Assembly: GCA_048213135.1 (NCBI GenBank)
Contig: PS015397.1
Coordinates: forward strand, 7,520-57,596
Source: Reclinomonas americana ATCC 50394
Lineage: Eukaryota
Reading direction: 5' to 3'
Length of the DNA stretch: 50,077 nucleotides
Shown here one piece after another: positions 710 to 35,178 of the stretch (positions are counted from its first letter, which is position 1; each line of letters starts with the position of its first letter). The notes beneath the pieces are model-generated. The model did not search any database. It had not been told where the DNA came from and was given only the letters and a program-made list of their open reading frames with translations. The translations under genes and the position numbers were made by a program.

Positions 710-3700
710 CTCCAGCACGCCAGGTGAGACTCATCGTGCTATTCTCTGCATCTGTTGCTCTCTCTGCTCACTGCCAGTATGTGTTCTATTCCTCTCTGGC
801 TTCTGTGCAGGTCGCAGCACAACGGCCCGCGGACACGGACGCACATATCGCTCAACTCCAGCGCGATCTCGCAGCGGCGCAGCGGGAGCGAGAGCAGCAG
901 CAGCGCGAGCACGAAGACATCGTCGCCCAACTTCAGCAAGCCTACGCTGAACTGGAACAGGGCAAGGCCGAGGAGCAGGAGCAGAATGCCATTCTGCAGC
1001 AATCCGTCGCCGAGCTGCAGCGAGCACTTGTCATCGAGCAGGAGACGAATGCGGAGCTGCAGCAAATCAATGCGGAGCTGGAACAGGGCAAGGTCGAGGA
1101 GCAGGAGCAGAATGCCTTGCTGCAGCAAACCGTCGCCGAGCTGCAGCGAGCACTTGTCATCGAGCAGGAGAAGAATGTCGAGCTCCAGGAAATCAATACT
1201 GAGAGTCTGCGACCAGCCGCCGATATCGTTGCTGAACGCAACCAGCTGCGACGGAGGGTGGATGAGATGGAAGGCCAGCTGCGCAGCCTCTTCCACATGG
1301 ACTTTCTCAGGTTCCTATTGGACGGTGTCTTGGTCTTATCTCGTGCAGCTGTCTTCCTCACTTCTCTATCTCAAATGCGCAGCGACCGCCGTCCCATTTT
1401 GATGCTCACGGAAGTCGTGCACGAGATCATCCCGCTGGCTCTCAGCTCGCTTTTGCAAGATCTCATCGAAGAGTTCTTCCCTGCCGAATTCGACATTGAG
1501 CAGCTCTGTCTTCCAGCTCCACCACCGAGGTACTGAAGGAGAGATTGCCTACGTGTACTATATTCCCTTCTTGCTCATTCTGCCGCGCAGGTATTGTCGG
1601 ATGACTCTGGACAAGCGTGGCAACATTCGCATGCGCTCCGTCGAATTGTTCCCTTCTAATCGCGAGGCGATTCGCGAGTTTAAGCAGAGTGGAATGACAA
1701 CGGACATGGACGTGTCGCTGCTGAGCACACTGCTGTTGCATGTGACCTTTGTTCCTCTTGCTGCCTGCCGGGAGGAGGACCTGCTGGAGAGTGGCGTTCG
1801 TCTCGATCCTGTCACGAACGTAGACCGACTGGCGTTGCACCTGCTTGCGGATGACGCCAAGGTGTGGCGGAGGGAAAGGGGAAGGGCAAAGGGGAAGGAG
1901 GGGAATAGAAATGGCAAAGGGGAGGAGGGAGAGATAGGGAGGGAGGAGGACGAGAGAGGAGTGAGGGCGGAGGAAGAAGGAGCTTGGGAGGAAGGCGAGG
2001 TGTGGAAAGAGAAAGCAAAGGGGAGGAGTGAGGTAGAATGTGAGAGAGAGAGAGAGAGGTAGGAGGGCAGAGAGTGAGGGAGAGCGAGAGGGAAGAGTGG
2101 GGAAGGAGGAGGACGAGGGAGCGATGAGGGAGGGAAGGAAGGGGCGAAAAGGATGGGATGGGAAGAGGCGTGATATGAGGGGAAGAGAGCAAAAGTAGGA
2201 ATGCGAAAGTGAGAGAGGGAGTAGGAGGCAGAGAGCGAGAAAGAGAGTGAAAGGGAGGAAGTGGGTGAAGTGAGGGAGGGAGGGCAGCGTTAAGAGAAGA
2301 ACGGAAGAAGAGAAGTGCGGAAGAGGAGCAAGGGGACGCAGGAAAGAGAGGTCCTCCACTGTGCTTGTTGGTGTTTTTTTTCTTGCGTCCTGCGCAGAGA
2401 TTTAAGATCTATTCTGCCGCGGAGGGAGAGGAAGAGGGAGGGGTGAGGAGTGAGGGAAAGTGTGGTCTTACACCTTGCTTCCCGTTCTCCTTCTTGGTGT
2501 TCCTTCATTGCATCTGCTGCATAAATCTACGTGCTTTCCTGCCCCACTCTCACTCTTATCCTCCGCTCTGAAGATTCGAGCCGTGGAGAACTTGCGTGAT
2601 GTGCGCCATCGCATGTCTCACCTGGCCCGCCTGTCTGCTCTCGAGGACGCAGAGTACGTGACCGTCATGCGTCAGGTTCGTGACTCGCTCTACACGCTGT
2701 TCCCCGACGGACAGCACGAGAGCATTCGTGCCTTGTTTCAAGCATATGCGAGTTGCGATACATTTTCGGTCGTTGTCGTGCTTCTCTCATCTCATTCTCT
2801 TCGGCTACAGAAGTGTGTCGCATCAATGCGACGGCCGAGCTGGTGACGGAGAGCGCAGCAAAATTCGCCATCCGCGCGCCTGTGGTGCCCTTTACTGAGC
2901 TTGAACTGTCGGCAAGACAACTCGCCATTGGTGAGATGCTGCGAAAGCCTGCCTCTGCATCTGCGTCGCTGTTCACCCTTCTGTCCCTGCCGGGCACAGG
3001 TCAAAATGCCGTGTTTCGAGCCGCTCTCCGTCTTGGTGGTGCCGCGCAGAGCGTTGCATACAAGCGGTATCTTGTGAGGAGCGAGAGTGAGCGGGAGGGT
3101 GTGCGAAGGAGTTTCGAGAACGAACACTCGCTGTTGGTGCAACTCGAGTTGCGCGCATTGTGGAAATCTAGGATCTGTGTTCCCCGGCAGTCGCTCACAC
3201 GCCAATACACACAGTCATCCGCACATTGTGAACCTTACGGCCGTGTGCAACGACGATCCGAGTGGCTTCGGTCTCATTCTCGAATATGTCGGTCAAGAAG
3301 GAGAGCGAGGGAACGCCGAGACGCTGCACGACTTGGTGAGACATGAGCAGGTGACGACTCGCCAGCTGCTCAATCTGCTCTTGCAAGTGGCGTCGGCGGT
3401 GGTGTACATGCACACGCGGCGAGTGGTGCATCGGGATCTCAAGCCGCAGAGTTAAGCGAAGGGAGGGGAGAAGGCGAAGGAGAGGGAGAAGGGGGAAGGA
3501 ACAGGGGGAAGGAATAGCGCGAAGGCAAAGGGGGAAGGAAAAGGGGGAGGAGACACGGGGAGGAGACGAGGGGGAGACAGGGGAGGAGAAGGGGGAAGGG
3601 AGGGTGAGAAGGGGGATGGAACAGGGGGAAGGAACAGGGGGAAGGAAAAGGGAGAAGGAACAGGGGGAAGGAACAGGGGAAAGGAACAGGGGGAAGGAGT

Positions 3701-5241
3701 AGGGGGAGGAGACGGAATAAGGAGAACGGAAAAAGGAGAACGGCAGAAGGAGTGAGGGGAAGGGAGAGGGGGAGGGAACAGGGGGAAGAAACACGGGGGA
3801 GGAAAAGGGGGAAGGTGAAGGGGGAAGATGAAGGGGGAAGGTGAAGGGGAAAGGAAAAGGGGGAGGAACAGGGGGAAGGAACAGGGGGAAGGAACAGGGG
3901 GAAGGAACAGGGGGAAGGAACAGAGGGGAAGGAACAGGGGGATGGAGAAAACAGGGAGAAGAGAAGGGGGAGGTTAAAGGAATCGTGATGAATGAGGATG
4001 TTGATTACAAGTAGAGAGCAAACAAAGCGAAGCGTCTATGGTGAGCAATCTGCCAATCACGAGAGCGAGAACCGAAGAGGACGCCTTCCTTTTTAAATCT
4101 TCCTCCTCCTCACCCTCGCCCTCCGTGTCCGCAGATATTCTGATCAGCGAAGACCGACTGGTGGCCAAGGTGTGCGATTTTGGCGAGGCCAAGATTCACG
4201 GCACTCTCGGCAAGATGCAGTCGAAGCACGGCACACTGGCGTATGCTGCACCAGAGACAATGTTGGAGCTGGAGGTTTTACATATTTCTAATTCGCTCTC
4301 GAGCTTGATTGCTGATTCTCACGCTCACTTTGGCCGTGCGCGCAGTACGACGAACGAGCTGATGTGTATGGACTCGGTTCGCTCTTATGGCTCATCGCCA
4401 CTCGCCGCGAGCCATTCAATGGAGAGGAGTCGGTGCTGAAAATTGGAGAACTCATGAAGGCCGGTGTCCACCCTGGTGACCTGGACGACGATGACGTGCG
4501 GGCAGCTGTGCCGGAGGACGTACGCAGTCTGATTCGGCAGTGCTGGGTTGCGTGGAGGAGGAGGGATGGGGTGATGAGAGGGAGAGGTGGAGAGGGGAGA
4601 GGCGGAGAAGGGAGGGAGAGAAGGGAGGGGGAGAGAGAAGGGAGGGTGAGAGAGAGAGACGAGGACTCATTGCGCTTGTAGGAAATGGATAAAGGTTAGG
4701 GAAGAGAGAGAAGGGAGAGGCTGAGAGACAGACAGACATAGAGACAGACACACAGAGAGAGAGAGGGAGAGAGAGAGAGACAGACGGACACAAATAGGCA
4801 GGTTGACTGGCAGACAGACACACATAGCTAGATAGAGATGGCAGACAGACAGACAGATAGAGAGAGGGAGACAGACAGACAGACAGACAGACAGGCACAC
4901 AGCGAGAGAAAGAGAGGGAAGAGAGACAGATAGCCAGGCAGGTAACAGACTGAGAGCGAGTGAGAGAGAGAGCGAGACAAACAGACCGGCAGACAGATAG
5001 ACCGAGAGAGAAAGAGAGAGAAAGAGAGACAGACAGACAAACAAACAAGGCAGACAGACATACACACGAGAAACACGACGACTCTCTTATGCCTGCGGTG
5101 CAGAGGCCACAAGCGACACGCGTGTCGGCATCCTATGTGCATGACGAAATGAAGCGATTATGTGAGGTGGCAAGTGCTGGGTGGAGAGTACCGCCAGGGA
5201 GAGCTGGAGTACGAGGAGGAAGTGCTGCTGGGCCGTCATGA
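710..5241 (+). CDS. Type-B gene copy 1 (5'-partial): [ankyrin presumably upstream of window]-microexon-coiled coil-DZIP3-like HEPN RNase-TKL-like protein kinase
   Basis: Frame-consistent GT-AG exons 710-723, 811-1310, 1383-1529, 1591-1861, 2574-2751, 2811-2930, 3000-3147, 3215-3450, 4135-4274, 4346-4546, 5104-5241. HEPN-like DMDVSLLSTLL...LRDVRHRMSH. Kinase motifs VAYK, FENE, HRDLKPQN, DFG, YAAPE, DVYGLG. From the HEPN exons onward the exon boundaries match the paralog at 22784-27589. Confidence 0.85.
946..1197 (+). repeat. Coding tandem duplication, 2 x 126 bp (42 aa, six heptads) in the coiled coil
   Basis: AELEQGKAEEQEQNAILQQSVAELQRALVIEQETNAELQQIN followed by AELEQGKVEEQEQNALLQQTVAELQRALVIEQEKNVELQEIN. 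Confidence 0.9.
3490..3960. repeat. Intronic purine-rich minisatellite (about 13-bp GGAACAGGGGGAA unit)
   Basis: Many degenerate tandem copies inside the intron between HRDLKPQ and the DFG exon. Confidence 0.8.
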
Positions 5242-5931
5242 GAGTGGACGTGGCCTGTTGTGGACCCACTGGCGATATCCGTATCGAGCGAGCGATTGAT
5301 TGCTGTCTGCAAGGTTTGTTATTAGCTGTCTTTCCTTCAACCATTGTGGTTTTACGTTCTCTCACTATTTCACATTGTGCGGTCAACAGCAACTCCAAGG
5401 GACATTGAGAAGAGAGCCATGAACGCCCGAGGAGGACGAGGCGCTCAACGGACAAGGGATGCGTGTACTGCGCGAAGCGTCCGAAGCGTGAATAAGTGAA
5501 ACGAGTCAAGACGGTCGCGTGAGTATTCTTCACCCTGCAGCAGGTGCACCGCAATCTAAGACAATTAGAACCATCGCGTCGCTACTGCGGCACCCGGCTT
5601 CAACGAGTTCAGCGCCAACGCAGGCCGCTGACACCACTTGCGCCACGAAATCTTCTCGAGGACAACACGCGTTTGATTGGCTTTGCCTCCTGAATGGGAA
5701 GGTGGCAGTTGGAGAAGAGAAACAATGTGTTTGCGTGTTGCTGGTTTGCCAAGGTCATTGTCGGAAAGGGATTTGTGGGCATTTGTTGCATTTGCAATGT
5801 GGTTTTGTTGTTGTCGACGTCTTGTTGCGCCAGCGACGTCGCTTATCGTCCACCATGAAACAGGACAGGCGGAAAAATTCTTGACCGAACTTGCGAACGT
5901 GCGACGAGGAAAGCAAACTGTGTGAGGCACA

Positions 5932-5962
<31 letters not shown>

Positions 5963-5999
5963 TCTTTGCTGTTTCCCTCCAGTCTAAGGGTCAAAGGAA

Positions 6000-7818
6000 A
6001 TGAGGTGTGCGGTGATTTTCAGATGGGGTTCTCACTTTGGCACTCACTCGTGCTTCTGCCTTCTTGTTTGTGCATGTGCGCGTGTGCGCGCGTGTGCCTC
6101 GTCGACAGTGCTCGTCGAAAGCCAGCGTGGCAGATTGCTAATACTGGTGATGTGGAGGCACTGCGCGAATTGGTGGCGCGCGAGGGCGCCCGCACTCTGC
6201 TGAAGCGAAAGGAGATGACTTCGACTGGCGGCTCGGCATTCTACTGTGCCGCTCTGTTCAGCTTCCTGCCTGTGTTGGAGTATTTGTGGGAGGAGAGTGG
6301 AGTTGGGCCACAACTCGCACAACTGATCACCGACATTGGCTGGACGCCACTGATGGCCGCGACTTGCTTCGGGCATCTGCAGGTGGTGGAGTGGTTGCTG
6401 GCCGATGAGCGACGATGTCCACCGGAGATGGTGCGGGTGGTCTCCAGTGGAGATGCCGAGCATCTACAGTGCACTGCTCTGCATTATGCTGCCGAGAGAG
6501 GCCACGAAGCCATTGTGCAACTCCTCGCCACTCGCTATCCTGACCTCATTCCCATGGTCAACAAGGAGGGTAAGACAGCGGCTCAATGGGCACGCGACAA
6601 CGGCAAGCAGCAAGTGGCCGACTTGCTCGACCGTCTTGCTGCGCAGCCTGCTTCGCCACTCAGTCGACCACGTGAAGGTGTGATCTCCCTCGTCTGGCGT
6701 CTGTTGCGATGCATTCCGTTTGTGCTCACATGCCTCCGTGTGTTTTTGTCTTTGTGTGTGTCGCCCTGCCAAAGACGCAGTGCCAGCACGCCAGGTGAGA
6801 CTGACACTACCAGTTTTCGTCTGCTGATTTTTTCTTCACTTGCATCATGTGGCTTCTTTACCAGGCGGCTGGCGATGATCTCACCACATTGGCACAGCAG
6901 CTCGCCGACAAGGACGCACTTCTCGCCCAGCTCCAGCGCGATCTCGCCGCTGTGCAGCAGGAGCGAGAGCAGCAGCAGCGAGAGTGGGATCGGCAGCGGC
7001 GAGAACACGAGGCCGTCGTCGCCCAGCTGCCGCTTGTAGAGAAAAAGAGGTGCGCTGTTCTTGTTGCACTGTCGCGGGGCATATTCTCGAGCTCCCTCTG
7101 TCACTCCCTCTGTCTAATCTGCTTGTTCGTGTCGTTCGTGTGGCCGCAGTCGACGGCACAAAGCATGGCAGATAGCAAGGGATGGGGATGTGCAGGCGCT
7201 GCGCGAGTTGGTGGCGCAAGGGGGCGCGGACATTCTGCTGAGGAGAGAGGAGATGGATTCGATTGGCGGCTCGGCATTCTACTCTGCCGCTCAACAAGGT
7301 CATCTCTCTCTGTTGGAGTATCTGTGGGAGGAGAGTGGCGTCGGCCCGCAACTCGCACTGCTGGTCGATGACGATGGTGGGACGCCACTGATGGTGGCCG
7401 CTGCCAATGGAGACGTGCGCGTGGTGGAGTGGTTGCTGGCCGATGAGCGACGGTGTCCGGCGGAGATGGCGCTAGCGGTCACCAATGACAATGGCTTCAT
7501 TCCTCAGTGCACTGCACTGCATTACGCTGCCTGGAGTGGTCGCGAAGCCATTGTGCGACTCCTCGCCACTCGTTATCCCGAGCTTCTTCCCATGGTCAAC
7601 AAGGAGGGTAAGACGGCGGCTCAGCTGGCGCGCGACAATGGTAAGCGGCGAGTGGCCGAGTTGCTCGAGTGCCTGGCGGCGGAGCGGCCGCTCAATCAGC
7701 CAGGACGACCTCCACATGCAGGTGTGATTAGATCTCATTTGCTCTTGTTGTGTAAGTCTCACTATCGTACGTCCTCACTCTGTCATGTGCTTGTGCCTTT
7801 GTGTGTGTGTGTATGTGT

Positions 7819-7869
<51 letters not shown>

Positions 7870-8612
7870 CGTCACTGGCGGAAAAAGCAGCGCCAGCACG
7901 CCAGGTAAGACTGGGAGTGCTGCTCTGTTGATCTTCCTCCTCCTCCTACTTCTTCTGCTGCTTCCGCTTCTTGTTCTTGTTCTTGTTTTTGTTCTTGTTC
8001 TTTTCTTTTTCTTCTTCTTCTTCTTGTTCTCCTTCTTCTTCTTGTTCTTCTTCTTGTTCTTCTTCTTCCTCTTTTTCCTTCCGCCTTCTTCTTCTTCTTC
8101 TTCTTCTTCTCCTCCTCCTCCTCCTCCTCCTCCTCCTCCTCCTCCTCCTCCCTCTCCTTCTTCTTTTTCCTCTTCCTCTTGTTCTTCTTCTTCTTCTTCT
8201 TCTTCATTCTTCATTCTTCTTCTTCTTCTTCTTGATCTTGTTCTTGTTCTTCTTCTTCGTCTTACTCTTCATCTGCCCCTCACTTCTTGTGTAGGAGGCT
8301 AGCGATGATCTCGCCACATTGGCACGCCAGCTCGCCGACAAGGATTCACTGAATGCCCAACTCCACCGTGACATCGCCGCTGCGCAGCAGGAACGAGAGC
8401 AGCAGCAGCGAGAGTGGGATCGGCAGCGGCGTGAACACGAGGACATCGTCGCCCAGCTGCAGCGTATGGTAGCGGAGCTCGAACGAGGCAAGGATGAGGA
8501 GCAACGGAAGACTGGCGAGCTGCAGCGTACGGTGGCGGAGCTGCATCAGGCCAATTTGCAGCTTCAGCAGGTCAACGCGGAACTGCAACGAGCTGTGCGA
8601 GCGAAGGAATAA
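6000..8612 (+). CDS. Type-C gene: (ankyrin-microexon-coiled coil) x2, no catalytic domain
   Basis: Exons 6000-6004 (ATGAG), 6109-6677, 6781-6794, 6865-7049, 7150-7721, 7891-7904, 8295-8612 (TAA). All intron phases are compatible. Ankyrin motifs GWTPLMAA, TALHYAA, GKTAAQ. Confidence 0.75.
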
Positions 8613-8932
8613 AGTCTTGTCAGTGATGCGTGCGTGCACTAAGGGAGATGTGCGGGTAGCACACAGAATGCCAGCGAATGAGCCAAGGCAGTTATGCGAG
8701 GACTGCATTGCATTGCGATTCACGCAGTCTGCCAAGATACTATACTTTTGCAAGCAGAGCCTTATCAGCAGGCCGTTTGAACGCGCAGGTGCAGAACGAG
8801 TAAGAGCTGGTTGTGTGCGTCATGATACAGCCTTTCCGAGCTCTGCAGATCTCTCTGACGTGAGTCATGGCAATAAACATTGAGTCTCTGTCCGCCAATA
8901 AACAGGACAGTAAAGAACGCCTGTTGTGTGTC

Positions 8933-9013: not shown

Positions 9014-9057
9014 GAAGGCGTGAGCGTGTGTTGCTTATGTTTCCCCCCAGGCATGCG

Positions 9058-11953
9058 ATGCATGAAATCCGCTAGTTTCGCTTTTTTTCGTCTCTGTGGC
9101 CATTTGCCTTGGTCTCTCACTGGCTCCTCTTCTGGCTTGTGTTTGCAGCAGTCGATTCCACAGAGCACATAATCTGGCAGAGTATGGCGATGTGGAGGCA
9201 TTGCGCGAGTTGGTGGCGCGTGAGGGCGCACGCACTCTGCTGAAGAGAGAGGAGATGGATATCCATGGCAGCTCTGCATTTCTGTGTGCTGCTGAGAAAG
9301 GCCATATCTCTGTGTTGGAGTTCTTGTGGGAGGAGAGTGGCGTCGGCCCAGAACTCGCGCAAATGGTCAACGATCGTGGCCGAACGCCACTGATAGCGGC
9401 TGCCGAGAAGGAGCAACTGGAAGTGCTGGAGTGGTTGCTGGCCGATGAGCAACGTTGTCCGCCGGAGATGGTGCGGGCGGTCACCGATGATTTCGACTCG
9501 TCCACCGCGTTGCATGCTGCTGCCGCAAATGGCCGCGAAGCCGTTGTTCGACTCCTCGCCACTTCCAGGCCCGACCTCATCCCCATGGTCACCACCTGGG
9601 GCAGGACGGCGGCTCAAGTGGCACGTGACAAGGGCAAACTGCAAGTGGCTGAGTTGCTCGACCGCCTCGCTGCGCAGTATCCACAGATTTGCCAGCAGCC
9701 GCAACAGGTACCGGTTCCGCGATCTCCTTTAGCCAGAGCTGCAGGTGTGATCCCGTCTTGGCTCTAAGTTTGCGCATTGCGCTGTCCGTACTCACACTGC
9801 GATATGCATGTCTCCTTATCTCTCCCTGCAGTTACATCTTATAATGCGCGAATACTACATGTGAGACAAGAACGAATCTTTTCGTCTGCTTGTAATCCTT
9901 CGCAGCTCTCACTTTCGTTCCTCGTCTCCCTCCGGTTTCTGTGCAGATGAGGTTGAACCAATTTTTGATGAAGAAGGAGCATCTCAAAGCTCAATTGAAC
10001 GTGCGAGAGCAGCCACAGCAAGAGTGGGATTGCAAGCAGCGGGAATATGAGGTCGCTTTTGCTGAACTTCGGCAAACTTGCGCGGATCTGGAGCGAGCGC
10101 ATGCCTCCGAGGAGCAGAAATGTGCCCATCTGCAGCAACTCAACACTGAGTTGCAGCAGGGCATGGCGATGGAGCAAGCGAGGAATGCCGAATTCCAGGA
10201 AGCCATTACGCGATGGCAGTCAGCTCATGCCGACGAGCGAGAGAAGCATGCTCAACTCCAACAAACCATTGCTGAGCTGAGGCAAGGGCGGGCCGAATTA
10301 CAACAGCAACTCGCCCATGTGCGGCAAGCTTATGCTGCAGGGCAACAGCAAGCAGCGCAACTGCAGCGAACTGTGACGGAATGGCAGCAAGCTCACCGCC
10401 AACTGCAGGCTCAGCTGACCACGGCTCTGCGCGACAAGGACGACCTCACCGCACAGCTGCAAGAAAGCAATCAACTCGTCTCCCAGCTGCGACAGGATCT
10501 TCTCCTCGCCCAAGGTCAGTCTCTTGCCCTCGTTCTTTCTTCATGTCAGTGTTCAATGTTCTTCGTTCTCACCAATATCTCACTTCCTCTCGCACTCCCG
10601 TCACAGTCGACACCGCCGTGCAGCGCTTCGATTGGCCCGAGATTGTGCAAGCCACCAATTCATTCTCTCCCCGCCTCAAGGTCGGCGAGGGTGGCCAGGG
10701 TGCCGTCTTCATCACTCTGCTTCGCGAGGTGCACGTGGCCATCAAGGTACTCGACCCCGATGCACCGTGGACGATGGAGTCATTTGAGAGTGAGGTCTGT
10801 CTCTTCCCTCTCCTGTTTCTTCTGTCTTTTCTCCCTTCTCATCCTTCTTCCCATCCTCGCAGGTGGCCACCCTCGGACGCCTGCGTGACCGTCGCATCGT
10901 GCCTCTCGTCGGTTACTCGGTGGGCGACGACAAGGCTCGCTGCCTCGTGTACAAGGCTCTGCAGTGCGTTTCTCATCTGACTCTCTCTTCTTCTCCCCCG
11001 TCTCCATCATCTTCTCACTGTGAAAGCACACAGAGTTCCCAATCTGGAAGATCTATTGCTGCTGCCACGAGCCGGTCGTGCACCACTCTCTGTTGTGCAG
11101 CGTGTGCAGATTGGTTTCGGACTGGCAGAGGCTGTGGTGTTCCTGCACAAGGTTTGTGCGATGTGGATACCATCCTCCATCTTTCCATTCACCATCTCCG
11201 TCACCCGAGCTCTCTGTTCTGCACTCTCTTCCTCTTCTCTCTTCTTGCCTCTTTTGATGTTCTTGTCGCTCTCTGTCTCACGTGTTCTCTCTCTGAATAG
11301 CCCTTGCTATCTGTGCTTGCCCTTTATCTCTCTTCACTCTCTTGTGTCTCCAAATCTCTCACTTTCTCTTGTTTTCGCTGTTGTGTTTTGTGTTTTGTTC
11401 CTCGCCTGACTCACCTCCGCTCGCAGAATGAGGTGGTACACCGCGACATCAAGCCCTCCAACGTTCTTCTTGATCACCGTTTCGAGCCATGTCTCGGTGA
11501 CTTTGGCATTGCACGGTCGATTGCAGACGTCAATATGGTTTGTTGTGGTCCTTTCTCATCTCTTCGGATAGTTGCTCACTGGTCCTCATTGTGCAGACGA
11601 CGACCGCCGCCGGCACACTGGACTACATGGACCCACTGGCGATGCGTGTGCGTCGTCCACAGCCCAAACACGATGTGTACAGCGTAGGTGTGGTGCTGGT
11701 GCAGCTGGTCACTGGCAAGCCCGTGGCCACTGTGGTGGATTGGTCCGTGGAGTGGGACGACTCGCCTGCCTCGTTGCGCGTGATGGATCTCGTCGATCGT
11801 GGAGCAGAGTGGACGCCGCGCATCGCCGAACCCATGTTCGAACTTGGCATGCGGTGCATGAGCTTGCAATCGAGACGACCAACGGCACAGGAGGTGCTTG
11901 ATGTGATGCGCGCACTGCGCGAGGCATGTGGCCAGTTTACGCTGGAACTTTGA
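9058..11953 (+). CDS. Type-A gene copy 1: ankyrin-coiled coil-IRAK/Pelle/RLK-type kinase
   Basis: Exons 9058-9074 (start tentative), 9149/9152-9744, 9832-9860, 9947-10514, 10607-10794, 10863-10963, 11034-11151, 11427-11537, 11597-11953. RFDWPEIVQATNSFS..KVGEGGQGAVF, VAIK, LVY gatekeeper, HRDIKPSN, DFGIAR, GTLDYMDP, DVYSVGVVL. Confidence 0.85.
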
Positions 11954-22712: not shown

Positions 22713-22783
22713 CGCCAATGGGTCCACAGGTGAGTTGTCTCACTGCACCACCGGCCACCTCCACTCCTTTCAGCTGCCACGCA

Positions 22784-25700
22784 CTATACCGGTCCAGCAG
22801 CGACCGCGCCAACTCCTCCTCCTCCTCCTCCAACTGGTGGCACTCTCCATCCCACCCCCGCCGCCTCACACCAACGCTTCAATTCGTCGTGCACATACGA
22901 CGCTGACACTCGCGTCGCTTGTGGCCTCTGCATCACAGGCACAATGAGCCCTCGCCTCGTTCTCTCTCCCCATCCAATCTTCATCTATTTCCCACTACGC
23001 AACCCAGCATTGCCGAATCAGACTGCGAATGTCCTCCGGCACAGCTGCTCGCACACTCTCCTCATCGAGATCGCCAGGCAAGACTCCGTCATTCATGCGA
23101 CGCATAATGGCTGGCAGCGTTACCCCACTGAACGGCTCTCGGCGAGTGGTGACGAGCCAGAGCAAGGATCCAAGTCCATATACGTCTGCTCGTTCATCGT
23201 ACTGCGAATGACCGCAGAGCATGAGAGTCAACTAATTGCGTCGAGTGAGAGAAGGTCAGCAACGAACTTCCTGGTCCAACATAGCCTCCGGTGCAGCATA
23301 CGCCGCCGTGCCATGGTTCGATTGCATCTTGCCGAGAGTACCATGAATCTTGGCCTCGCCAAAATCGCACACCTTAGCCACCAGGCGGTCCTCGCTAATG
23401 ACAATATCTGCGAGTATTGGGAGAGACAACGCGATCAGTCAACTAGAGCCAACAAGATATCCTCTTAAGTCCGCTCGCCGAATGACCGAAACATTCTCTC
23501 ATCGCGAAATGAAAGACGGGGAGAAGAGGGGTGGACTACAGGCCGTCTCCTCCCCCCTCGCTCATCTTCTGATATCTATCGCTCTAATTTCGTGTCTCAC
23601 TCTACCCTTCATTGGCGCAGCCACGCCAGCAATAGCATTCTTGCTGCCTGTCACTCTGAAAGACGCAACTCTGCGGCTTGAGATCACGGTGCACCACTCG
23701 ACGCGAGTGCATGTGAAGCACCGCCGATGTGACTTGAAGCAGCAGATTAAGAAGGTGCTGAGTTGTCACACGCCCATCCTTCACCAAGTCGTGCAGCGTC
23801 TCGGCGTTGCCCTCTTCGTCTTCTTGACCGACGTATTCGAGAACAAGACCGAGACCGCTCCGATCATCGCTGCACACGGCCGTCAGTTTCACAATGTGTG
23901 GATGGCTGTATGTGTGGAGAAAAATGAGTAGATGCATTCATCCGGGGAAAGCGCTTCACGAATTTACGCAACTCGAGCTGCATCAGCAGCGAGTGCTCAT
24001 TCTCGAAGCTCTCACGAACACAGATGCAGTCCTCAGAATTCCTGATCAAGTATCGCTTATATGCAACCGTGTGCACCACACCGCCGAGGCAGAGAGTCGC
24101 ACGGAAAACAGCGTTCTGGCCTGTGCAGTAGACGGCAGCGATGAGTTGCTGTTTGACTCTGTTATTAGAAAACAAGCTGCGGCTCAAACCAATGGCCAGC
24201 TGCCTCGAAGTGGCAACATCAGAGAAATGCACAACAGGTGCACGTATGGAAAATCTCGCTGCCCTCTCCGTCATTAACTCTGCCGTAACATTGATGCGGC
24301 TCACATCTGTGCCGAAATTTGAGTTCCACAGAATAGAGACATCTTGCGTCAAGTGTTGACGCAACTCTCGTATGCTTGGAACAGCAGACGGGTGCTCTCA
24401 TGCTGGCCGTCGGGGAATAGCGTGTGGAGCGAGTCACGAACCAGCCGCATAATGCTTACATATTCTGCGTCTTCGAGTGTGGACAGACGGGCCAGATGAG
24501 ACATCCGGTGGCGCACGTCTCGCAAGTTCTCCACAGCGCGAATCTACAAAGCAGACGATAAAGTGAGAAACATGGGGGCGGACGCACAGCAAACAGGACA
24601 CACCTTTGCATCGTCAGCAAGCAGGTGTACTGCCAGTCGATCTCCGTTCGTGACAGGGTCCAGACGCACCCGACTCTCCAGCAGATCATCATCACGGCAA
24701 GCGTCGGCAGGAACAAACGATGTGTACAACAGAAGTGTGCTCAGCAGCGACACGTCCATGTCCGTGGTCATTCCACTCTGCTTAAACTCATGAATTGACT
24801 CGTAGTTGGAAGGGAATAACTCGACGGAGCGCATGCGAATGTTGCCACGCTTGTCCAGAGTCATCCGACAATACCTGTGAAGCAGATTAGCAAGAAGGGA
24901 ATATAGTACACACAGGCTATCTCTCTTTCAGCACCTCGGTGGTGGAGCTGGAAGACAGAGCTGCTCAATGTCGAATTCGGCAGGGAAGAACTCTTCGATG
25001 AGATCTTGCAAAAGCGAGCTGAGAGCCAGTGGGATGACCTCGTGCACGACTTCAGTGAGCATCAAAATGGGACGGCGGTCGCTGTGCATTCGATAGAGTG
25101 AGGAAAGAAAGTCGCCCACTGGAGTCAATGCAATTGTCACTTGAAACCTGAGAAAGTCCATGTGGAAGAGAGCGCGCAGCTGGCCCTCCATCTCTTCTAC
25201 CCGTTGTCGCAACTCATCGCGTTCGGCAGTGGCTGCGCTCGCCTGCAAGCGACAAAAGTTGCAGTCGGCGGTGGCTGCCGACAACTCGAGAGCCAATTGC
25301 TTGTGATCCGCGGCCAGCACGTCGTTGGCTCGTTGGGCAGCCAACAAGTCTTCAGTGAGTTGTCGACGGTCGGCTGACATAGCCTTGACCTTTGCTTGCG
25401 ATGCAGCCAGATTCTCGGCGAGTCGGTCACGCTCCGCAGTGACTGCACCAATTATACTAGAAGACTTGTTGGCTGCGCCCATGTGGAAAAATTGGTCGAC
25501 GCATAGCGAGTGAGCGACTGGCATGAAAAAGTAGACAAACAGGGTAAGACAGGCGACAACCAGAAACACAAACCTTGAACGAGGAGGACATTCTGTCGCA
25601 GCTGAGCGATGACACGGTCTTGCTCCTCAAGCTGATGTTGTGCAACGGACAATTGATTGGCGAGATCGTCAACGTCCCGCCGAGCAGCAGCGAGCTGGAC

Positions 25701-26321
25701 AGTAAGTCGATCGCGCTCGGCTTGCACCGCAATTTGCACCTGCTGCAGTTCAGCGTTGGCGGATTCCAATTGCGCGTTCTTGTGCTGCTCCCTCGCGAGA
25801 GCTCCTTGCCATCCCGCAATGGTCTCCTGCGATTGCGCATTCGCCCGCTGCTCTTCGTCTCTACCGCGATGGAGTTCTGCCACCACGCGCTGAATTCGGG
25901 CATTGTCTTGCTGCAGGTCCGAGTTCGCCCGCATCAACTGAACGACATGCTGCTGGGTTTCTGTGTGCGCCTGTTGCAGCTCCGCATGGGCTTGCTGCAG
26001 TTGCGCAAAAGTGCCGTCGTGCTCTAGCCGCAGCCGATCCCGCTCAAGTTGCTGTAGCTCATGCTCCTGCTGTGCTGAAGGAAGATTGTGTTGGAGCTCG
26101 GCAATGAGAGCGTCCTTGTCGATGACCTGACCAGCCACAATAGTGGCATCGTCAGACGACTGTATTTGCGCAGGGGCCAAGAAGGTGAGGAAGCAAGAGA
26201 GCACATGCGAGCAATGCCATATCGTACCTGACGTACTGGTGCTGCGATTATGAACGAACACACACACACACACATGGACACAAACGCACACAAACACAGA
26301 GAGAGAGAGAGAAAGAGAGAC

Positions 26322-26378
<57 letters not shown>

Positions 26379-26699
26379 CGTAGACCGTACGACGAACGGA
26401 CGAACCGAACGGAAGGGGTAAGGTAAGGNNNNNNNNNNNNNNNNNNNNNNNNNNNNNNNNNNNNNNNNNNNNNNNNNNNNNNNNNNNNNNNNNNNNNNNN
26501 NNNNNNNNNNNNNNNNNNNNNNNNNNNNNNNNNNNNNNNNNNNNNNNNNNNNNNNNNNNNNNNNNNNNNNNNNNNNNNNNNNNNNNNNNNNNNNNNNNNN
26601 NNNCGAACGTTAACGAACGAACGAACGAACAACGAACGAACGAACGAACGAACGAACGAACGAACGAACGAACGAACGAACGAAGAACGAACGAACGAC

Positions 26700-26781
<82 letters not shown>

Positions 26782-27589
26782 AGCGATAAAGCACTGATCA
26801 ATCGTAACATGAATGAAGTGATCAGACCTGGCGGAGGCGGCAGCGGTGGAGGGGGAGGTCGCACCAAGAGATGTTGGCGGCGGGGTGAGAGTGCAGGCTG
26901 CGCAGCGAGGCGATCGAGAAATTCGGCCACCTGCTGACTTCCTTTTTCGCGTGCCCACTGCGCCGCCGTCTTGCCCTTCTTGTTGACCATGAGAATGAGG
27001 TCGGGGAAGCGAGTGGCGAGGTACTGCACCATGACATCGTGTCCATTCGCGGCAGCATAGTGCAGCGCAGTGGACTGTGGATCGCTGTCTCGGTCATTGG
27101 TTACCGCCCGCACCATCTCCGGCGGACAACGTTGCTCATCGGCCAGCAACCACTCCACCACGTGCAGCCGCCCAGAGGCGGCAGTCACCATCAACGGCGT
27201 TCGCCCACGATCGCTGACCATTCGCGCAAGTTGTGGGCCGACACCGCTCTCTTCCCACAAGTACTCCAATACAGTGAGATGACGATTGGCGGCGGCACAG
27301 TAGAACGCCGAGCAGCCGAACGCATTCAGCTCATCTCTCTTCAGCAGCGTCTGCTCTCCCTCACTCGCCACTAACTCGCGCAGTGCCTTCACATCGCCGT
27401 CGTTCCCCATCTCCCATGCTCTCTTCCTCAGTTGGTTCCGAGGAGACGAGCAGCCAGAACTGGAAAACACACACACACACACCACCACCACCACCACCAC
27501 CACAACAACAACAACAACAACAACAACAACAGCAACAATGAGAGAATATCGACACAGAAGCACTTACCGAATGGTGAGACGCACCTCAT
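22784..27589 (-). CDS. Type-B gene copy 2 (complete): ankyrin-microexon-coiled coil-DZIP3-like HEPN RNase-TKL-like kinase
   Basis: ATGAG 27589-27585, ANK 27459-26828, microexon 26241-26228, CC 26159-25574 and 25472-25148, HEPN exons 25081-24935, 24874-24604, 24543-24366, kinase exons to the stop at 22784. RHRMSH at 24513-24496; VAYK, HRDLKPQN, DFG and YAAPE present. Confidence 0.88.
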
Positions 27590-27899
27590 TTCCCGATGCT
27601 GTGAACTGGGGGTATTCCAGCTACTATCGACTCTCGCGCGTGCTCTCTCTCTCTCTCTCTCTCTCAGAGGCACAATCTCCTCCGCGCGTGGTGAAGTAAC
27701 GCGTCGATTTCTCGTGTCCTGTATCCCAACAGCGGACAGCGGCTCGAATCACGCCAACGTCGCGCTCTTTTGCTCACAACGACAGACTGCGCTGCCACAT
27801 CATCTACGCGCACACACCACTCACCTCTCTCCCTGTCTCTCCTCTCTCTTTTCACCTGCGGCGTGTCCTGTGTGAACGAATTAATTGTCACACGTCACC

Positions 27900-28312: not shown

Positions 28313-28316
28313 AGAG

Positions 28317-28350
<34 letters not shown>

Positions 28351-28535: not shown

Positions 28536-28566
<31 letters not shown>

Positions 28567-31968: not shown

Positions 31969-32244
31969 AAAGAGGAGGAGAGGGAGAAGGGTGTCCTGTC
32001 GTTGTTGGCCGGAAAAAAGGCAGTGCCGGCGCGAGGTGCAGGAGGAAGAGTCTATTTCCCCGACTTTCTCCGTGCCAGTGAGGAAGCATCGAGACGACGT
32101 CGCCTTTGCATCTCCTGTCCGCCAATGAAACGGGACACGAACGGAAAAAAGGAAGTGCACGAGGCAGAGAGAGGGAGAGAGTGAGAGCGAGTGTGTGTGT
32201 GTGAGAGAGAGAGAGCACGCCACTGTTGTATTCTCTCAAAGAAA

Positions 32245-34758
32245 ATGAGGTTTGCTGTGATGTTGTCATGTGGCATTCTTTCTCTCGCACTCTCACTCGC
32301 GCTTCTGCTTTTGCCTCTTTGGTGGCAGTGCTCCTCGGAAGAAAGCATGGCAGATGGGCGAGTATGGCGATGTGAAGGCACTGCGCGAGTTGGTGGCGCG
32401 TGAGGGTGCACGCACTCTGCTGAGGAGAGAGGAGATGAATGAGAATGGCAGCACGGCATTTCACTGGGCCGCTGGCAGAGGCCATCTCTCTGTGTTGGAG
32501 TATTTGTGGGAGGAGAGTGGTGTCGGGTCACAACTCGCACAAATGGTCAGTGAATATGGATGGACGCCACTGATGATTGCTGCCAACAATGGGCATCTGC
32601 AAGTGGTGGAGTGGTTGCTTGCCCATGAGCGACGATGTCCGCCGGAGATGGTGCGGGCGGTCACCAATGACCAATGGAATCCGCAGTCCACCGCGCTACA
32701 CTATGCTGCCAAGTATGGTCACGAAGCCATTGTGCGACTCCTCGCCATTCGCTTCCCCGACCTCATTCCCATGGTCGACAAGCGGGGCAAGACGGCGGCT
32801 CAGTGGGCACGCGACAAAGGCGAGCAACACGTGGCCGAGTTGCTCGATCACCTCGCTGCGCTACCAGCACCACCACGCCAACAGCAACAACTACAGCAGC
32901 CGCGATCCCCGCCTCCTGCAGGTATGACCTCCATAATGTCTCTTGGCAAGTTGTGTTCGTGCTCACGCTCCACCATCTGTGGTTTGTCCTTGTGTGTGTC
33001 GTTCCTGGCGAATATGCAGTGCCAGCACGCCAGGTGAGACGGAGAGTGCCACTCTGTGCTTCCTGTTGCTCGTGAAACTCACTTCTCACATCCGTTCCGT
33101 GTCTCCCTCGCACTCTCGTAAATTGCAGTCGGCTGTTGATGATCCCACCGTCGCACGCCAGCTCGCCGACAAGGACGTACTCCTTGTGCAGCTGCAGCGC
33201 GATCTTGCCGCAGCGCAGCAGGAGCGGGAGCAGCAGCAACGGGAATGGGATCGACAGCGACGAGAGCACGAGGACATTGTCGCCCAACTGCAACAAGCCA
33301 GTGCAGAGCTCGAAGGAGACAAGGCCGAGGAGCTGCAGAATATTGCCCAGTTGCAGCGAATCATCGCGGAGCTTGAGCGAGCCAAGGTTGAGGAACAGCA
33401 CAAGGTCGCCCAACTGCAGGCGGCGGTGGGCGAATGGGAGCGAGCTCACGTTGACGGACAACATCAAATCGCGCAATTGCAGCAAGCCAACTTGGAATGG
33501 CAACAAGCTCACGCCAGTGAGCAGCAGAGGAATGCTCAATTGCAACAAGCCAATGCTGAATGGCAACAAGCTCATGGTCAATTGCAGCAAGCTCATGGCC
33601 AACTGCAGGATCAGCTGACTGCGGCTCTGCGCGACAAGGACGATCTCACCGCGCAGCTGCAAGCAAGCAATCAACTCGTATCTCAGCTGCGACAGGATCT
33701 CCTCCTCACCCAAGGTCTGTGGTGTGAGTCCTTCATTCTCACCCATTTCTCACTCCCTTCCCTCTCGTTCCACAGTCGACACCGCCGTGCAGCGCTTCGA
33801 GTGGCCCGAGATCGTGCAAGCCACCAACTCATTCTCTCCCCGCCTCAAGGTCGGCGAGGGTGGCCAGGGTGCCGTCTTCATCACTCTTCTCCGCGAGATG
33901 CACGTGGCCATCAAGGTGCTCGATCCCGAAGCACCGTGGACGATGGAGTCGTTTGAGAGTGAGGTCGGTGTCTCTCTCCTTTTTCGCTGCCTTCTCTCTT
34001 TCTCCTCATCCTTCTCTTCCCGTCTCCCAGGTTGCCACCCTCGGACGCCTGCGTGACCGTCGCATTGTGCCACTTGTCGGCTACTCGGTGGGCGACGACA
34101 AGGCACGCTGTCTCGTGTACAAGGCTCTGCAGTGCGTTTCCATCTCTCTCTCTCTCTCTTTTTCTCCATCATCGTCTCACTGTGAAAGCACACAGAGTTC
34201 CCAATCTGGAGGATCTGTTGCTGCTGCCACGCGCCGGTCGTGCACCACTCTCTGTCGTGCAGCGTGTGCAGATTGGTCTCGGGCTGGCCGAGGCCGTGGC
34301 GTTCCTGCACAAGGTTTGTGCGATGTGGATGCCTTTCTTCATCTCCCATTCACCCTCGCTATGCCTTTGCGTTCTTCGCTCTTCTTTCTCAATGTCACTC
34401 TACTCATGTTCTTGTCTCTCGTGCTTCTACTTTATCTTGTCTCTCGTGCTTCTACTTTACCACTCTTCTGTCTCTCTTGGTCACCCTTGCCCTCTTTACG
34501 TTGCTCATTATTCTCTTCTGTCTTCGTCACTCTGTGCCTTACTTGTCACTCCTGGTTCTCTGATTCCCACTGCTCTCTTTCCCGTCTTGTTGTGTTTTAC
34601 GCTTTGTTCTCGCCTCTCTTACCTCTCCTCGCAGAATGAGGTGGTGCATCGCGACATTAAGCCCTCCAATGTGCTTCTCGATCACCGCTACGAGCCATGT
34701 CTTGGTGACTTTGGCATTGCGCGGTCGATTGCAGATGGCAAGGTCTGTTTCCATTCAG

Positions 34759-34792
<34 letters not shown>

Positions 34793-35178
34793 ACGCCTGC
34801 TCACATTCCCTCATCTCACAGACCACGACCGCCGCCGGTACACTGGACTACATGGACCCACTGGCGATGCGTGTCCGTCGCCCGCAACCCAAACACGACG
34901 TGTACAGCATGGGTGTAGTGCTGGCGCAGCTGGTCACTGGCAAGCCCGTGGCCACGGTGGTGGATTGGTCCGTGGAGTGGGACGACTCGCCAGCCTCGCT
35001 GCGTCCAATGGAACTGGCGGATCGTGGAGCAGAGTGGACACCGCGCATCGCCGAGCCAATGTTTGAACTCGGCATGCGGTGCATGAGCATGCAACCGAAG
35101 CGACCGACGGCGCAGGAGGTGCTCGATGTGATGCGTGCACTGCGCGAGGCGTGTGGGCAGTTTACGCTGGAGCTTTAA
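32245..35178 (+). CDS. Type-A gene copy 2 (complete): ankyrin-microexon-coiled coil-IRAK/Pelle/RLK-type kinase
   Basis: Exons 32245-32249 (ATGAG), 32329-32921, 33020-33033, 33129-33714, 33776-33963, 34031-34131, 34196-34313, 34635-about 34743, 34822-35178. Kinase nearly identical to copy 1. Confidence 0.9.

What the first reader, a model, noticed from the sequence alone, without database searches (positions are those of the whole stretch)
710..35178. Mix-and-match sensor/effector system: one ANK-CC front end wired to three outputs
Seen: a homologous front end (start exon, phase-2/phase-1 ANK exon, microexon, CC exon with LADKD.L..QLQRDLAAAQQEREQQQ) precedes a Pelle-type kinase (9058, 32245), a HEPN plus an unrelated TKL kinase (710, 27589), or nothing (6000). 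The first CC exon of type-B copy 2 ends QLRQNVLLVQ-G|gt, the same phase-1 boundary where type-A genes end QLRQDLLL(A/T)Q-G|gt before the kinase. This points to exon shuffling at that intron. Inference: shared coiled coils could let signalling, RNase and catalytic-dead members hetero-oligomerise, like sensor/helper/decoy networks of NLRs.
Basis: partly seen in the sequence, partly recalled or inferred. Interest (0 to 1): 0.85.

Follow-up and report, generated by a model that had tools for sequence, protein, structure and literature searches.

The report
Ankyrin–coiled-coil kinase family with swapped effectors
A cluster of related genes in an unidentified eukaryote shares an ankyrin-repeat plus coiled-coil front end but carries different back ends, and a leftover piece of the old kinase shows that one back end was swapped in by a DNA rearrangement.

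Summary
The observation largely holds. The window has five ankyrin (ANK) exons and six microexon plus coiled-coil (CC) units, in five genes with GT-AG introns. Two genes (type A) end in an IRAK/RLK-like kinase. Two (type B) end in a second CC, an orphan helical domain and a different, TAK1/RIPK-like kinase. One is an in-frame ANK-CC-ANK-CC with no effector.

The exon-shuffling idea is supported, and by more than the shared phase-1 boundary. Directly behind the stop of type-B copy 2 lie the last 1.2 exons of a type-A kinase (79% over 504 nt). Both type-B copies share the same joint, marked by a 16-nt copied motif.

The ANK recognition positions are hypervariable (dN/dS 1.26, against 0.33 for the framework). 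The CC is predicted as one 189-residue helix with 3.5-residue periodicity. A conserved inverted repeat sits upstream of four starts.

Not supported:
- The HEPN label has no HMM, structural or homology support, only a conserved R-x4-H and a weak language-model lead.
- No member looks kinase-dead.
- Hetero-oligomerisation and an NLR-like network remain untested.
- Trees of five or six copies do not reject congruence.
- No genome, RNA data or relatives were available.

This is a new variant of known modular ANK-kinase signalling proteins, of moderate interest.

The parts
710..5241 (+). g1, type-B copy 1 (5'-partial). Exons: microexon 710-723; CC 811-1310; mid domain 1383-1529, 1591-1861, 2574-2751; linker 2811-2930; kinase B 3000-3147, 3215-3450, 4135-4274, 4346-4546, 5104-5241.
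   Evidence: Model is in frame and all introns are GT-AG. Against g4 the cassette has dN/dS 0.17.
952..1197 (+). 126-nt tandem duplication (2.0 copies, 92% matches) inside the g1 CC exon.
   Evidence: Tandem Repeats Finder.
1438..1637 (+). Patch that is near-identical to g4 (190 of 200 nt, including the 61-nt intron). Probably a recent gene-conversion tract.
2604..2621 (+). Conserved R-x4-H (RHRMSH) in the g1 mid domain. The g4 counterpart is at 24513-24496 (minus strand).
   Evidence: Translations. The motif alone is not significant.
5261..5325 (+). Rearrangement joint behind the g1 stop: a 16-nt copy of last-exon sequence followed by a decayed remnant of type-A kinase exon 8 with its donor.
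5846..5866 (+). Variant of the upstream inverted repeat (CGTCC-N11-GGACA) before g2.
   Evidence: Alignment.
6000..8612 (+). g2, ANK-CC-ANK-CC with no effector. Exons: 6000-6004, 6109-6677, 6781-6794, 6865-7049, 7150-7721, 7891-7904, 8295-8612.
   Evidence: One open frame of 558 aa, all introns GT-AG. The second unit's start is AAGAG|GT.
8889..8909 (+). Upstream inverted repeat TGTCC-N11-GGACA before g3.
9058..11953 (+). g3, type-A copy 1. Exons: possible 17-nt start exon 9058-9074; ANK 9149-9744; microexon 9832-9860; CC 9947-10514; kinase A 10607-10794, 10863-10963, 11034-11151, 11427-11537, 11597-11953.
   Evidence: The start exon is inferred only. The canonical ATGAG|GT is lost.
22225..22726 (-). 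Remnant of a type-A kinase behind g4: 16-nt joint motif 22726-22711; exon-8 part 22713-22651 (DFG changed to DIV); 63-nt intron; intact last exon 22587-22228; stop 22227-22225.
   Evidence: blastn gives 79.4% over 504 nt, E 3e-124. tblastn gives E 3e-66. dN/dS is 0.16-0.17. Joint motif.
22784..27589 (-). g4, type-B copy 2 (1046 aa, 14 exons). Exons: start 27589-27585; ANK 27459-26828; microexon 26241-26228; CC1 26159-25574; CC2 25472-25148; mid domain 25081-24935, 24874-24604, 24543-24366; linker 24306-24190; kinase B 24120-23973, 23905-23670, 23407-23268, 23201-23004, 22927-22784.
   Evidence: Pfam finds ANK and Pkinase on the relevant exons.
27715..27738 (-). Upstream inverted repeat TGTCC-N14-GGACA before g4.
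32116..32137 (+). Upstream inverted repeat TGTCC-N12-GGACA before g5.
32245..35178 (+). g5, type-A copy 2 (689 aa, 9 exons). Exons: 32245-32249; ANK 32329-32921; microexon 33020-33033; CC 33129-33714; kinase A 33776-33963, 34031-34131, 34196-34313, 34635-34742, 34822-35178.
   Evidence: Pfam. Solved relatives IRAK4, IRAK1 and plant RLKs. CC modelled as one helix, residues 6-194, pLDDT 93.8.

Best explanation
This is a lineage-specific, tandemly duplicated family of cytoplasmic signalling proteins in an unidentified eukaryote.

Architecture. Each member starts with about four and a half ankyrin repeats. Their target-binding surface is free to vary or is diversifying. A roughly 190-residue heptad-periodic helix follows, most likely a dimerising coiled coil.

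Evolution.
- The ancestral output is an IRAK/RLK-like Ser/Thr kinase with all catalytic motifs (type A).
- Type B arose once. A DNA rearrangement placed a foreign cassette into a type-A gene. The cassette holds a second coiled coil, an orphan all-helical domain, a TAK1/RIPK-like kinase and its own stop.
- The 5' join is in the phase-1 intron after the CC exon. The 3' join is inside kinase exon 8. This displaced the first three and a half kinase exons and left the rest behind the new stop.
- The family then diversified by duplication, patchy gene conversion, CC indels and a deletion that fused two units (g2).

Likely mechanism (inferred, not shown). The ANK surface binds a variable ligand. The coiled coil holds two chains together. 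Ligand-dependent rearrangement then activates the C-terminal kinase by trans-phosphorylation. In type B this may also activate the helical domain, if that domain is a dimer-dependent HEPN-type RNase.
For: Copies and models.

Remnant of the type-A kinase behind the g4 stop:
- blastn 79.4% over 504 nt, E 3e-124.
- tblastn 72% over 162 aa.
- DFG is changed to DIV in the exon-8 part.
- g1 has the same joint.
- The 16-nt motif TGGACCCAYTGGCGAT occurs 5 times against 0 expected: 3 at the native last-exon site and 2 at the two joints.

Boundary: CC1 of g4 and the CC of g5 are both 586 nt and phase 1, and their last 40 nt align.

Cassette is functional: g1 against g4 gives dN/dS 0.17 over 523 codons.

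Kinases:
- Kinase A, g3 against g5: dN/dS 0.08.
- IRAK/RLK likeness.
- Kinase B is closest to TAK1, RIPK and MLKL on one exon. Kinases A and B share 30% identity.

ANK:
- 23 of 24 canonical binding positions vary, against 37 of 76 framework positions (Fisher p 2e-5).
- Pooled dN/dS is 1.26 at binding positions and 0.33 in the framework, with equal dS.

CC:
- One helix, residues 6-194, pLDDT 93.8.
- Hydrophobic period is 3.50 in 5 of 6 segments; a/d occupancy z-scores are 2.3-7.0.

Shared upstream inverted repeat: 3 exact matches against 0.67 expected, each 110-165 nt before a start exon, plus a variant before g2.

Gene conversion: 190 of 200 nt are identical between g1 and g4, including an intron.
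Against: - No transcript evidence exists, so all exon junctions are predictions.
- No genome is held, so copy number and the cassette's donor are unknown.
- No relatives were found elsewhere, so conservation beyond these paralogues is unknown.
- Tree tests do not reject congruent histories of ANK, CC and effector.
- Saturated synonymous divergence in the CC N-part could reflect slippage and misalignment of Q/E-rich sequence rather than recombination.
- The remnant's last exon is far too well kept for a fossil: 19 aa differences, against 41-64 expected under neutrality. The simple 'dead remnant' picture is therefore incomplete.
- Ligand binding, dimerisation and any immune role are inference only.
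Confidence: 0.62

Rival explanations
1. The members hetero-oligomerise through the shared coiled coil and act as a sensor/helper/decoy immune network. In this model type B is an RNase (HEPN) arm and the effector-less g2 is a decoy.
For: - Shared, conserved CC N-segment (LADKD...QQEREQQQREWDRQRREHE) in 4 of 6 units.
- Hypervariable ANK surface.
- Shared upstream element, compatible with co-regulation.
- An effector-less member exists.
- Conserved R-x4-H in both type-B copies.
- Language-model lead from exon 8 to HEPN_DZIP3/DUF4559 clusters: score 0.86, with 173-174 shared features.
Against: - No HMM hit for HEPN at E up to 10 on the exons or the read-through.
- phmmer against 1.84 billion representatives gave only 4 spurious repeat proteins.
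- No NACHT or NB-ARC domain is present.
- R-x4-H is expected by chance about 0.4 times in 240 residues (my estimate).
- No expression or interaction data exist.
Confidence: 0.15
2. An ordinary lineage-specific signalling family with no conflict or immune role. The ANK-CC module is a scaffold or localisation device. ANK surface variation is relaxed constraint after duplication. g2 and perhaps g3 are decaying copies.
For: - dN/dS at ANK binding positions is about 1, not clearly above it. Six of 10 pairs exceed 1 and the range is 0.57-2.88.
- g2's first unit is truncated and the second has lost its ATG.
- g3 has lost the canonical start exon.
- The neighbours are housekeeping genes: an RFC subunit and an EEP nuclease/phosphatase.
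Against: - The ANK framework (0.33), kinase A (0.08) and the cassette (0.17) are all under purifying selection.
- On the last exon, the g3 and g5 branches both have low dN. This is my decomposition of the distances.
- The g2 fusion stays in frame over 558 codons.
Confidence: 0.2
3. The type-A remnant behind type B is not a by-product of cassette insertion. It is the stump of a separate neighbouring type-A gene that lost its 5' part by deletion, and type B acquired its front end in some other way.
For: The family is tandemly arrayed, and deletions that fuse neighbours do occur (g2).
Against: - It needs two events where one suffices. It still leaves the type-A-like end of CC1 unexplained: 586 nt, same phase, alignable last 40 nt.
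- The remnant is in the same orientation, 58 nt behind the type-B stop.
- The joint, with its 16-nt templated copy, is shared by both type-B genes.
Confidence: 0.08

Closest known systems
RNase L (ankyrin repeats, pseudokinase, KEN/HEPN RNase) and Ire1
   Same: An ANK sensor at the N-terminus, a kinase-fold domain, and dimerisation-driven activation. If the type-B mid domain is a HEPN, the same three domain kinds are combined. [quoted passage not shown]
   Different: - The order is ANK-CC-CC-(helical domain)-kinase, not ANK-kinase-KEN.
- No KEN or Ribonuc_2-5A match was found.
- Kinase B keeps the Lys, HRD and DFG.
- A long coiled coil is present.
- HEPN identity is unproven.
IRAK/Pelle kinases and plant RLK/RLCK kinases (BIK1, Pto, CERK1, LYK3)
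   Same: Kinase A's N-lobe and C-lobe exons are closest to these among solved structures. It has the typical juxtamembrane-like lead-in and a full catalytic motif set.
   Different: There is no death domain, no transmembrane or ectodomain, and the N-terminus is ANK plus coiled coil. E-values are modest (about 1e-5 per exon). No phylogeny was made.
ANK-plus-kinase proteins of the TKL group (ILK, TNNI3K, plant ANK-kinases; RIPK4/ANKK1 with ANK at the C-terminus). Recalled, not tested.
   Same: Ankyrin repeats are fused to a TKL-type kinase as a protein-binding or regulatory module.
   Different: Here a 190-residue coiled coil separates the two. The ANK surface is hypervariable between paralogues. 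The effector end differs between family members.
DZIP3/hRUL138-type HEPN expansions in animals and Capsaspora
   Same: The survey reports lineage-specific expansions and fusions to ankyrin, CARD, NACHT, DEATH and LRR (PMC3710099, Table 1 passage). Exon 8 of type B gives a weak language-model lead to HEPN_DZIP3 clusters. From memory only, the spacing of conserved hydrophobic residues around the R..H motif resembles that family.
   Different: There is no Pfam PF18738 hit at any threshold tried. A kinase fusion is not among the listed architectures. Membership is not established.
NLR sensor/helper/decoy networks and MLKL (helical bundle plus pseudokinase)
   Same: Variable recognition repeats, a modular effector end, and an effector-less paralogue. 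Like MLKL, type B has a helical domain ahead of a RIPK-like kinase fold, and MLKL is among the solved relatives of exon 13 (E 0.006).
   Different: No STAND NTPase is present. The kinases look active. No evidence was obtained for a membrane-acting bundle or for pairing between members.

Membership tests
Ankyrin-repeat proteins | Tandem 33-residue ANK repeats recognised by the Pfam models | tested here: met
   Ank_2 scores E 4.5e-20 (g4) and 3.1e-25 (g5), above the gathering score. Four TPLH-type repeats plus caps are visible in the alignment.
Coiled-coil proteins | Long helix with heptad (3.5-residue) hydrophobic periodicity | tested here: met
   AF2 model on a 6-row alignment gives one helix, residues 6-194, pLDDT 93.8. 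The period peak is 3.50 in 5 of 6 segments, with a/d occupancy z 2.3-7.0. Oligomeric state was not tested.
IRAK/Pelle/RLK kinases (type-A output) | Protein-kinase domain with Lys, HRD and DFG, and closest to IRAK/RLK members | tested here: met
   Motifs GEGGQG, VAIK, HRDIKPSN and DFG are present. Pkinase hits fall on the exons. The best solved relatives are IRAK4, BIK1, LYK3, IRAK1, CERK1 and BRI1.
IRAK/Pelle proper | N-terminal death domain | tested here: not met
   No death-domain hit. The N-terminus is ANK plus CC.
IRAK/Pelle/RLK kinases | Placement inside the clade in a kinase phylogeny | not tested
   No reference kinase set could be obtained. The word-indexed search with the last exon found nothing.
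HEPN superfamily (type-B mid domain) | Conserved R-x4-6-H motif | tested here: met
   RHRMSH is identical in g1 and g4. However, the whole domain is conserved (dN 0.08), and such a motif is expected about 0.4 times by chance in 240 residues.
HEPN superfamily (type-B mid domain) | Match to a HEPN family profile (for example PF18738 or PF05168) | tested here: not met
   0 Pfam families at E up to 10 on three exons of both copies and on the read-through P0125. Nothing in PADLOC or PHROGs. The spliced domain could not be submitted.
HEPN superfamily (type-B mid domain) | All-alpha four-helix-core fold | tested here: inconclusive
   The single-sequence AF2 model of the read-through has pLDDT 36.9. 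It is helical but unusable for fold search.
RNase L / Ire1 | KEN domain directly C-terminal to the kinase fold | tested here: not met
   After kinase B only about 47 residues follow, with no Pfam hit. The candidate RNase domain lies N-terminal to the kinase.
TKL group (type-B kinase) | Closest to TKL members over the whole domain | tested here: inconclusive
   Exon 13 is closest to TAK1 (5.9e-5), then WNK1, MLKL and RIPK1/2. Exon 11 is closest to CDK6, AMPK, MARK and Nek7.
NLR / STAND receptors | NACHT or NB-ARC NTPase | tested here: not met
   No such Pfam hit on any exon.

The most novel reading that the evidence does not exclude
A protist has independently built an RNase-L-like innate sensor family. 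In this reading:
- Hypervariable ankyrin sensors sit on a dimerising coiled coil.
- The genes are co-regulated through a shared upstream palindrome.
- The killing or signalling end is exchangeable: an IRAK-like kinase, or a HEPN RNase plus a TAK1/RIPK-like kinase.
- The swap was made by one cassette insertion.
- The displaced kinase exon is still kept by selection and may be spliced onto the new gene.
Probability: 0.13. Interest if true: 0.8.

Novelty: new variant of a known kind. Interest (0 to 1): 0.42.

Why it matters
This is an unusually legible case of effector-domain replacement in a signalling gene. Both joints, the displaced exons and a templated 16-nt filler are still readable, and two descendant copies share them. 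That makes the order of events inferable from one window.

If the family proves to be infection-responsive, it would add an ANK-based, NTPase-free receptor class to the innate-immunity-like systems known outside animals and plants. It would also link IRAK-type and TAK1/RIPK-type kinases to one sensor.

If it is merely a lineage-specific signalling family, its value is as a worked example of exon shuffling, gene conversion and gene fusion acting within 35 kb.

Tried and rejected
- **Whole genome.** Not held, so no census.
- **Earlier scan notes.** None for this genome or for exon 7.
- **Sequencing runs.** None was listed and no RNA holder was listed, so reads were never laid.
- **ANK exon against 5.8 billion proteins, longer lengths.** 127 hits among 2734 candidates. 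The best 120 are generic ANK proteins at 40% identity or less, and none carries a kinase Pfam family.
- **Kinase-A last exon, longer lengths.** 864 candidates, none at E up to 0.001.
- **Metagenome contigs with the ANK exon.** 592 pattern matches, of which 1 was confirmed at 34% identity. It is a generic ANK protein.
- **phmmer of mid-domain exon 7 against 1.84 billion representatives.** 4 hits, all repeat proteins (HYR, HEAT, Ig_7, CBM_1), taken as spurious.
- **Atlas.** For exon 7 the best score was 0.78 with no family. The Atlas did not accept the read-through.
- **Solved structures against the read-through.** One hit at E 2.
- **PHROGs and PADLOC.** Nothing better than E 0.12.
- **AF2 of the read-through.** pLDDT 36.9, so no fold search was made.
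- **Complex prediction, g5 CC with g2b CC.** No verdict; scores 0.10 and 0.02 against a mark of 0.34.
- **Taxon.** The RFC exon gives 51% identity or less to plants, amphioxus, diatoms, oomycetes, a cryptophyte and an amoeba alike. The organism stays unidentified.
- **3' flanks of the genes.** Only one 13-nt match.
- **Trees.** Only g2a+g2b is supported (85/88 and 97/96). AU tests do not reject g3+g5 or g1+g4.
- **Literature.** Two searches (listings only) showed no description of this architecture. This does not prove that none exists.
- **Supplements.** Additional file 1 of PMC3710099 (family alignments) could not be seen. It might have allowed a motif-level check of the DZIP3-type HEPN idea.

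Full report
**What the window is.** The window is eukaryotic, with GT-AG introns of 60-700 nt rich in microsatellites. It has 4432 N in 16 gaps. No genome is held for it. The best matches of a neighbouring RFC exon are only 51% identical or less, and they spread over plants, animals, stramenopiles and amoebae. The organism therefore stays unidentified.

**Check of the observation.**
- tblastn with one ANK exon finds five copies: 6113-6685, 7151-7729, 9153-9713, 27428-26886 (minus strand) and 32336-32860. Coiled-coil homology follows each copy and also follows position 811.
- I built exon models by hand. All introns are GT..AG and each model has one open frame.
- **g5** (32245-35178; 689 aa) and **g3** (9058?-11953) are ANK, microexon, CC, kinase A.
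- **g4** (27589-22784, minus strand; 1046 aa) and **g1** (710-5241; ANK exon off-window) are front end, CC2, mid domain, kinase B.
- **g2** (6000-8612) is ANK-CC-ANK-CC.
- Start exons are ATGAG|GT (phase 2). ANK exons leave in phase 1. The microexon is 14 nt (29 nt in g3). CC exons leave in phase 1.
- The CC1 exon of g4 and the CC exon of g5 are both 586 nt. Their ends, QLRQNVLLVQ-G|gt and QLRQDLLLTQ-G|gt, align at the DNA level.
- No other family pieces occur elsewhere in the window.

**The domains.**
- *ANK.* It is confirmed by Pfam (E 1e-20 to 1e-25).
- *CC.* On a six-row alignment, the CC exon of g5 is modelled as a single helix from residue 6 to 194 at pLDDT 93.8. Strong hydrophobic residues recur with a 3.50-residue period in 5 of 6 CC segments, and a/d occupancy lies 2.3-7.0 SD above shuffles.
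- *Kinase A.* It has GEGGQG, VAIK, HRDIKPSN and DFG. Its closest solved relatives are IRAK4, BIK1, SYMRK and BRI1 for the C-lobe, and LYK3, IRAK1, CERK1, BRI1 and Pto for the N-lobe.
- *Kinase B.* It has VAYK, HRDLKPQN, DFG and AAPE, but a degenerate Gly-loop (IGQNAVF).
  - It is 30% identical to kinase A over 239 aa and shares none of its intron positions.
  - One exon is closest to TAK1, then WNK1, MLKL and RIPK1/2. Another is closest to CDK6, AMPK and MARK. 'TKL' is therefore plausible but not settled.
  - Neither kinase looks dead.

**The 'HEPN'.** The roughly 200-residue domain between CC2 and kinase B is split over three exons.
- It is highly conserved between g1 and g4 (dN 0.08, dN/dS 0.14) and carries an identical RHRMSH.
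- Pfam gives nothing at E up to 10, either on the exons of both copies or on a contiguous read-through of g4 with X at the two intron stops.
- phmmer of the largest exon against 1.84 billion representatives returns four repeat proteins that are clearly spurious.
- The PDB sequence search, PHROGs and PADLOC give nothing.
- A single-sequence AF2 model is unusable (pLDDT 36.9).
- The only positive sign is a language-model lead for exon 8 to clusters partly annotated DUF4559 or HEPN_DZIP3. The score is 0.86, with 173-174 shared features.
- From memory, the spacing of conserved residues resembles invertebrate DZIP3-type HEPN domains. That is a lead, not a test.
- I put HEPN at roughly even odds or less. 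The spliced domain could not be submitted to any profile or fold tool here.

**Origin of type B.** This is the firmest new result.
- Behind the g4 stop, on the same strand, g5's 34679-35176 (second half of kinase exon 8, the intron and the whole last exon) matches 22714-22227 at 79.4% over 504 nt, E 3e-124 (tblastn E 3e-66).
- In the exon-8 part, DFG has become DIV.
- g1 has the same joint and a decayed exon-8 part with its donor, but lacks the last exon.
- The 16-nt string TGGACCCAYTGGCGAT occurs five times in the window, against none in 100 shuffles. Three copies are at its native place in the last exon of g3, g5 and the remnant. Two sit exactly at the joints of g1 and g4. This looks like a templated filler at a rearrangement joint.
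- The simplest history is a single event. A cassette (CC2, mid domain, kinase B, stop) replaced type-A kinase exons 1 to 3.5, entering in the phase-1 intron after the CC exon. The product then duplicated to give g1 and g4.
- g1 later lost the CC1/CC2 junction by an internal deletion and gained a 126-nt tandem duplication.

**A puzzle.**
- The remnant's last exon is an intact 120-codon frame. It has 19 aa differences and one 2-aa insertion relative to g5, and dN/dS 0.16-0.17.
- Neutral simulation at 0.2-0.375 substitutions per site gives 41-64 aa changes. None of 20,000 runs had 20 or fewer, and only 7-18% had no stop.
- Yet the joint predates the g1/g4 split, whose cassette dS is 0.74.
- Either the exon is still used or gene conversion refreshed it. 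A phase-compatible donor, CCG|GTATAG, overlaps the g4 stop.

**Family dynamics.**
- *Divergence profile.* Between g3 and g5, the ANK exon has dS 0.25-0.49. The linker and CC N-part are saturated. The last 45 CC codons plus the kinase have dS 0.18-0.54 with dN 0.07 or less. Other pairs show a similar profile. This fits recombination or gene conversion, but misalignment of Q/E-rich sequence may contribute.
- *Conversion.* A clear conversion patch exists between g1 and g4: 190 of 200 nt are identical, including an intron, against 75-80% in the flanks.
- *Trees.* Trees of the five ANK and six CC-N sequences are star-like. Only g2a+g2b is supported, and AU tests do not reject effector-congruent groupings. 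Tree incongruence is therefore not shown.
- *ANK surface.* At the positions that are randomised in designed ankyrin binders (recalled), 23 of 24 vary, against 37 of 76 framework positions (p 2e-5). A slightly different position set gave 24 of 24 against 29 of 68. Pooled dN/dS is 1.26 against 0.33 at equal dS. The surface is unconstrained or diversifying.
- *Upstream element.* An inverted repeat, TGTCC-N11-14-GGACA, lies 110-165 nt upstream of g3, g4 and g5 (3 matches against 0.67 expected), with a variant before g2.

**Comparison with known systems.**
- ANK plus kinase is a common pairing.
- ANK plus kinase-fold plus HEPN is the make-up of RNase L. The HEPN survey lists that fusion, and lists DZIP3-type HEPN fused to ankyrin, CARD, NACHT, DEATH and LRR, with expansions in Nematostella, oyster and Capsaspora. 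I read only passages of PMC3710099.
- This family differs in domain order, in the long coiled coil, in apparently active kinases, and in having two alternative outputs on one front end.
- It has no NLR hallmark.
- I found no relatives in the protein or contig collections searched.

**Verdict.**
- The shuffling inference is right and now has direct physical evidence.
- The HEPN label, the dead-kinase remark and the immune-network reading are unproven.
- I rate it a new variant of a known kind, of moderate interest.

Noticed in passing
window 22225-22726 (-): The displaced type-A kinase last exon behind g4 is an intact frame with dN/dS 0.16-0.17. That is far better kept than a neutral relic should be. 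The whole stretch 22878-22225 is one open frame, because the 63-nt intron has no stop.
   Followed up: partly
window 6865-7150 (+): The first CC exon of g2 is truncated after about 61 codons. It reads in frame into AAGAG|GT, the mutated start exon of the next ANK-CC unit. This gives one 558-codon frame.
   Followed up: partly
window 1438-1637 (+) and its counterpart in g4: A roughly 200-nt patch is 95% identical between the two type-B copies, including a 61-nt intron. Eighty consecutive bases are identical, inside genes that are otherwise 75-80% alike.
   Followed up: yes
window 952-1197 (+): 126-nt tandem duplication (2 copies, 92% matches) inside the coiled-coil exon of g1.
   Followed up: yes
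window 8889-8909, 27715-27738, 32116-32137, 5846-5866: A conserved inverted repeat, TGTCC-N11-14-GGACA, partly overlapping a CCAAT. It lies upstream of each family member that has its own 5' end and is followed by a purine-rich microsatellite.
   Followed up: partly
window 9040-9148 (+): g3 has lost the canonical ATGAG|GT start exon (it now reads GAAATCCGC). A 17-nt exon, 9058-9074, with donor GTTTCG would restore phase 2.
   Followed up: partly
window 41524-42129 (-) and 36691-37428 (+): The neighbouring genes are a replication factor C small subunit (RFC3/5-like) and an endonuclease/exonuclease/phosphatase-family protein.
   Followed up: partly
window 44929-45384 / 49284-49600 (-) and 46649-46945 / 47637-47954 (+): Two pairs of similar open frames with no Pfam match suggest another duplicated element or gene pair at the 3' end of the window.
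   Followed up: no
window 1-660, 1862-2570, 3452-4130, 4550-5100, 7920-8290: Several introns are filled with long CT/GA-rich, GGGAAGGAACAG-type or CTT-type simple repeats. Many assembly gaps (N runs) fall in such tracts.
   Followed up: no
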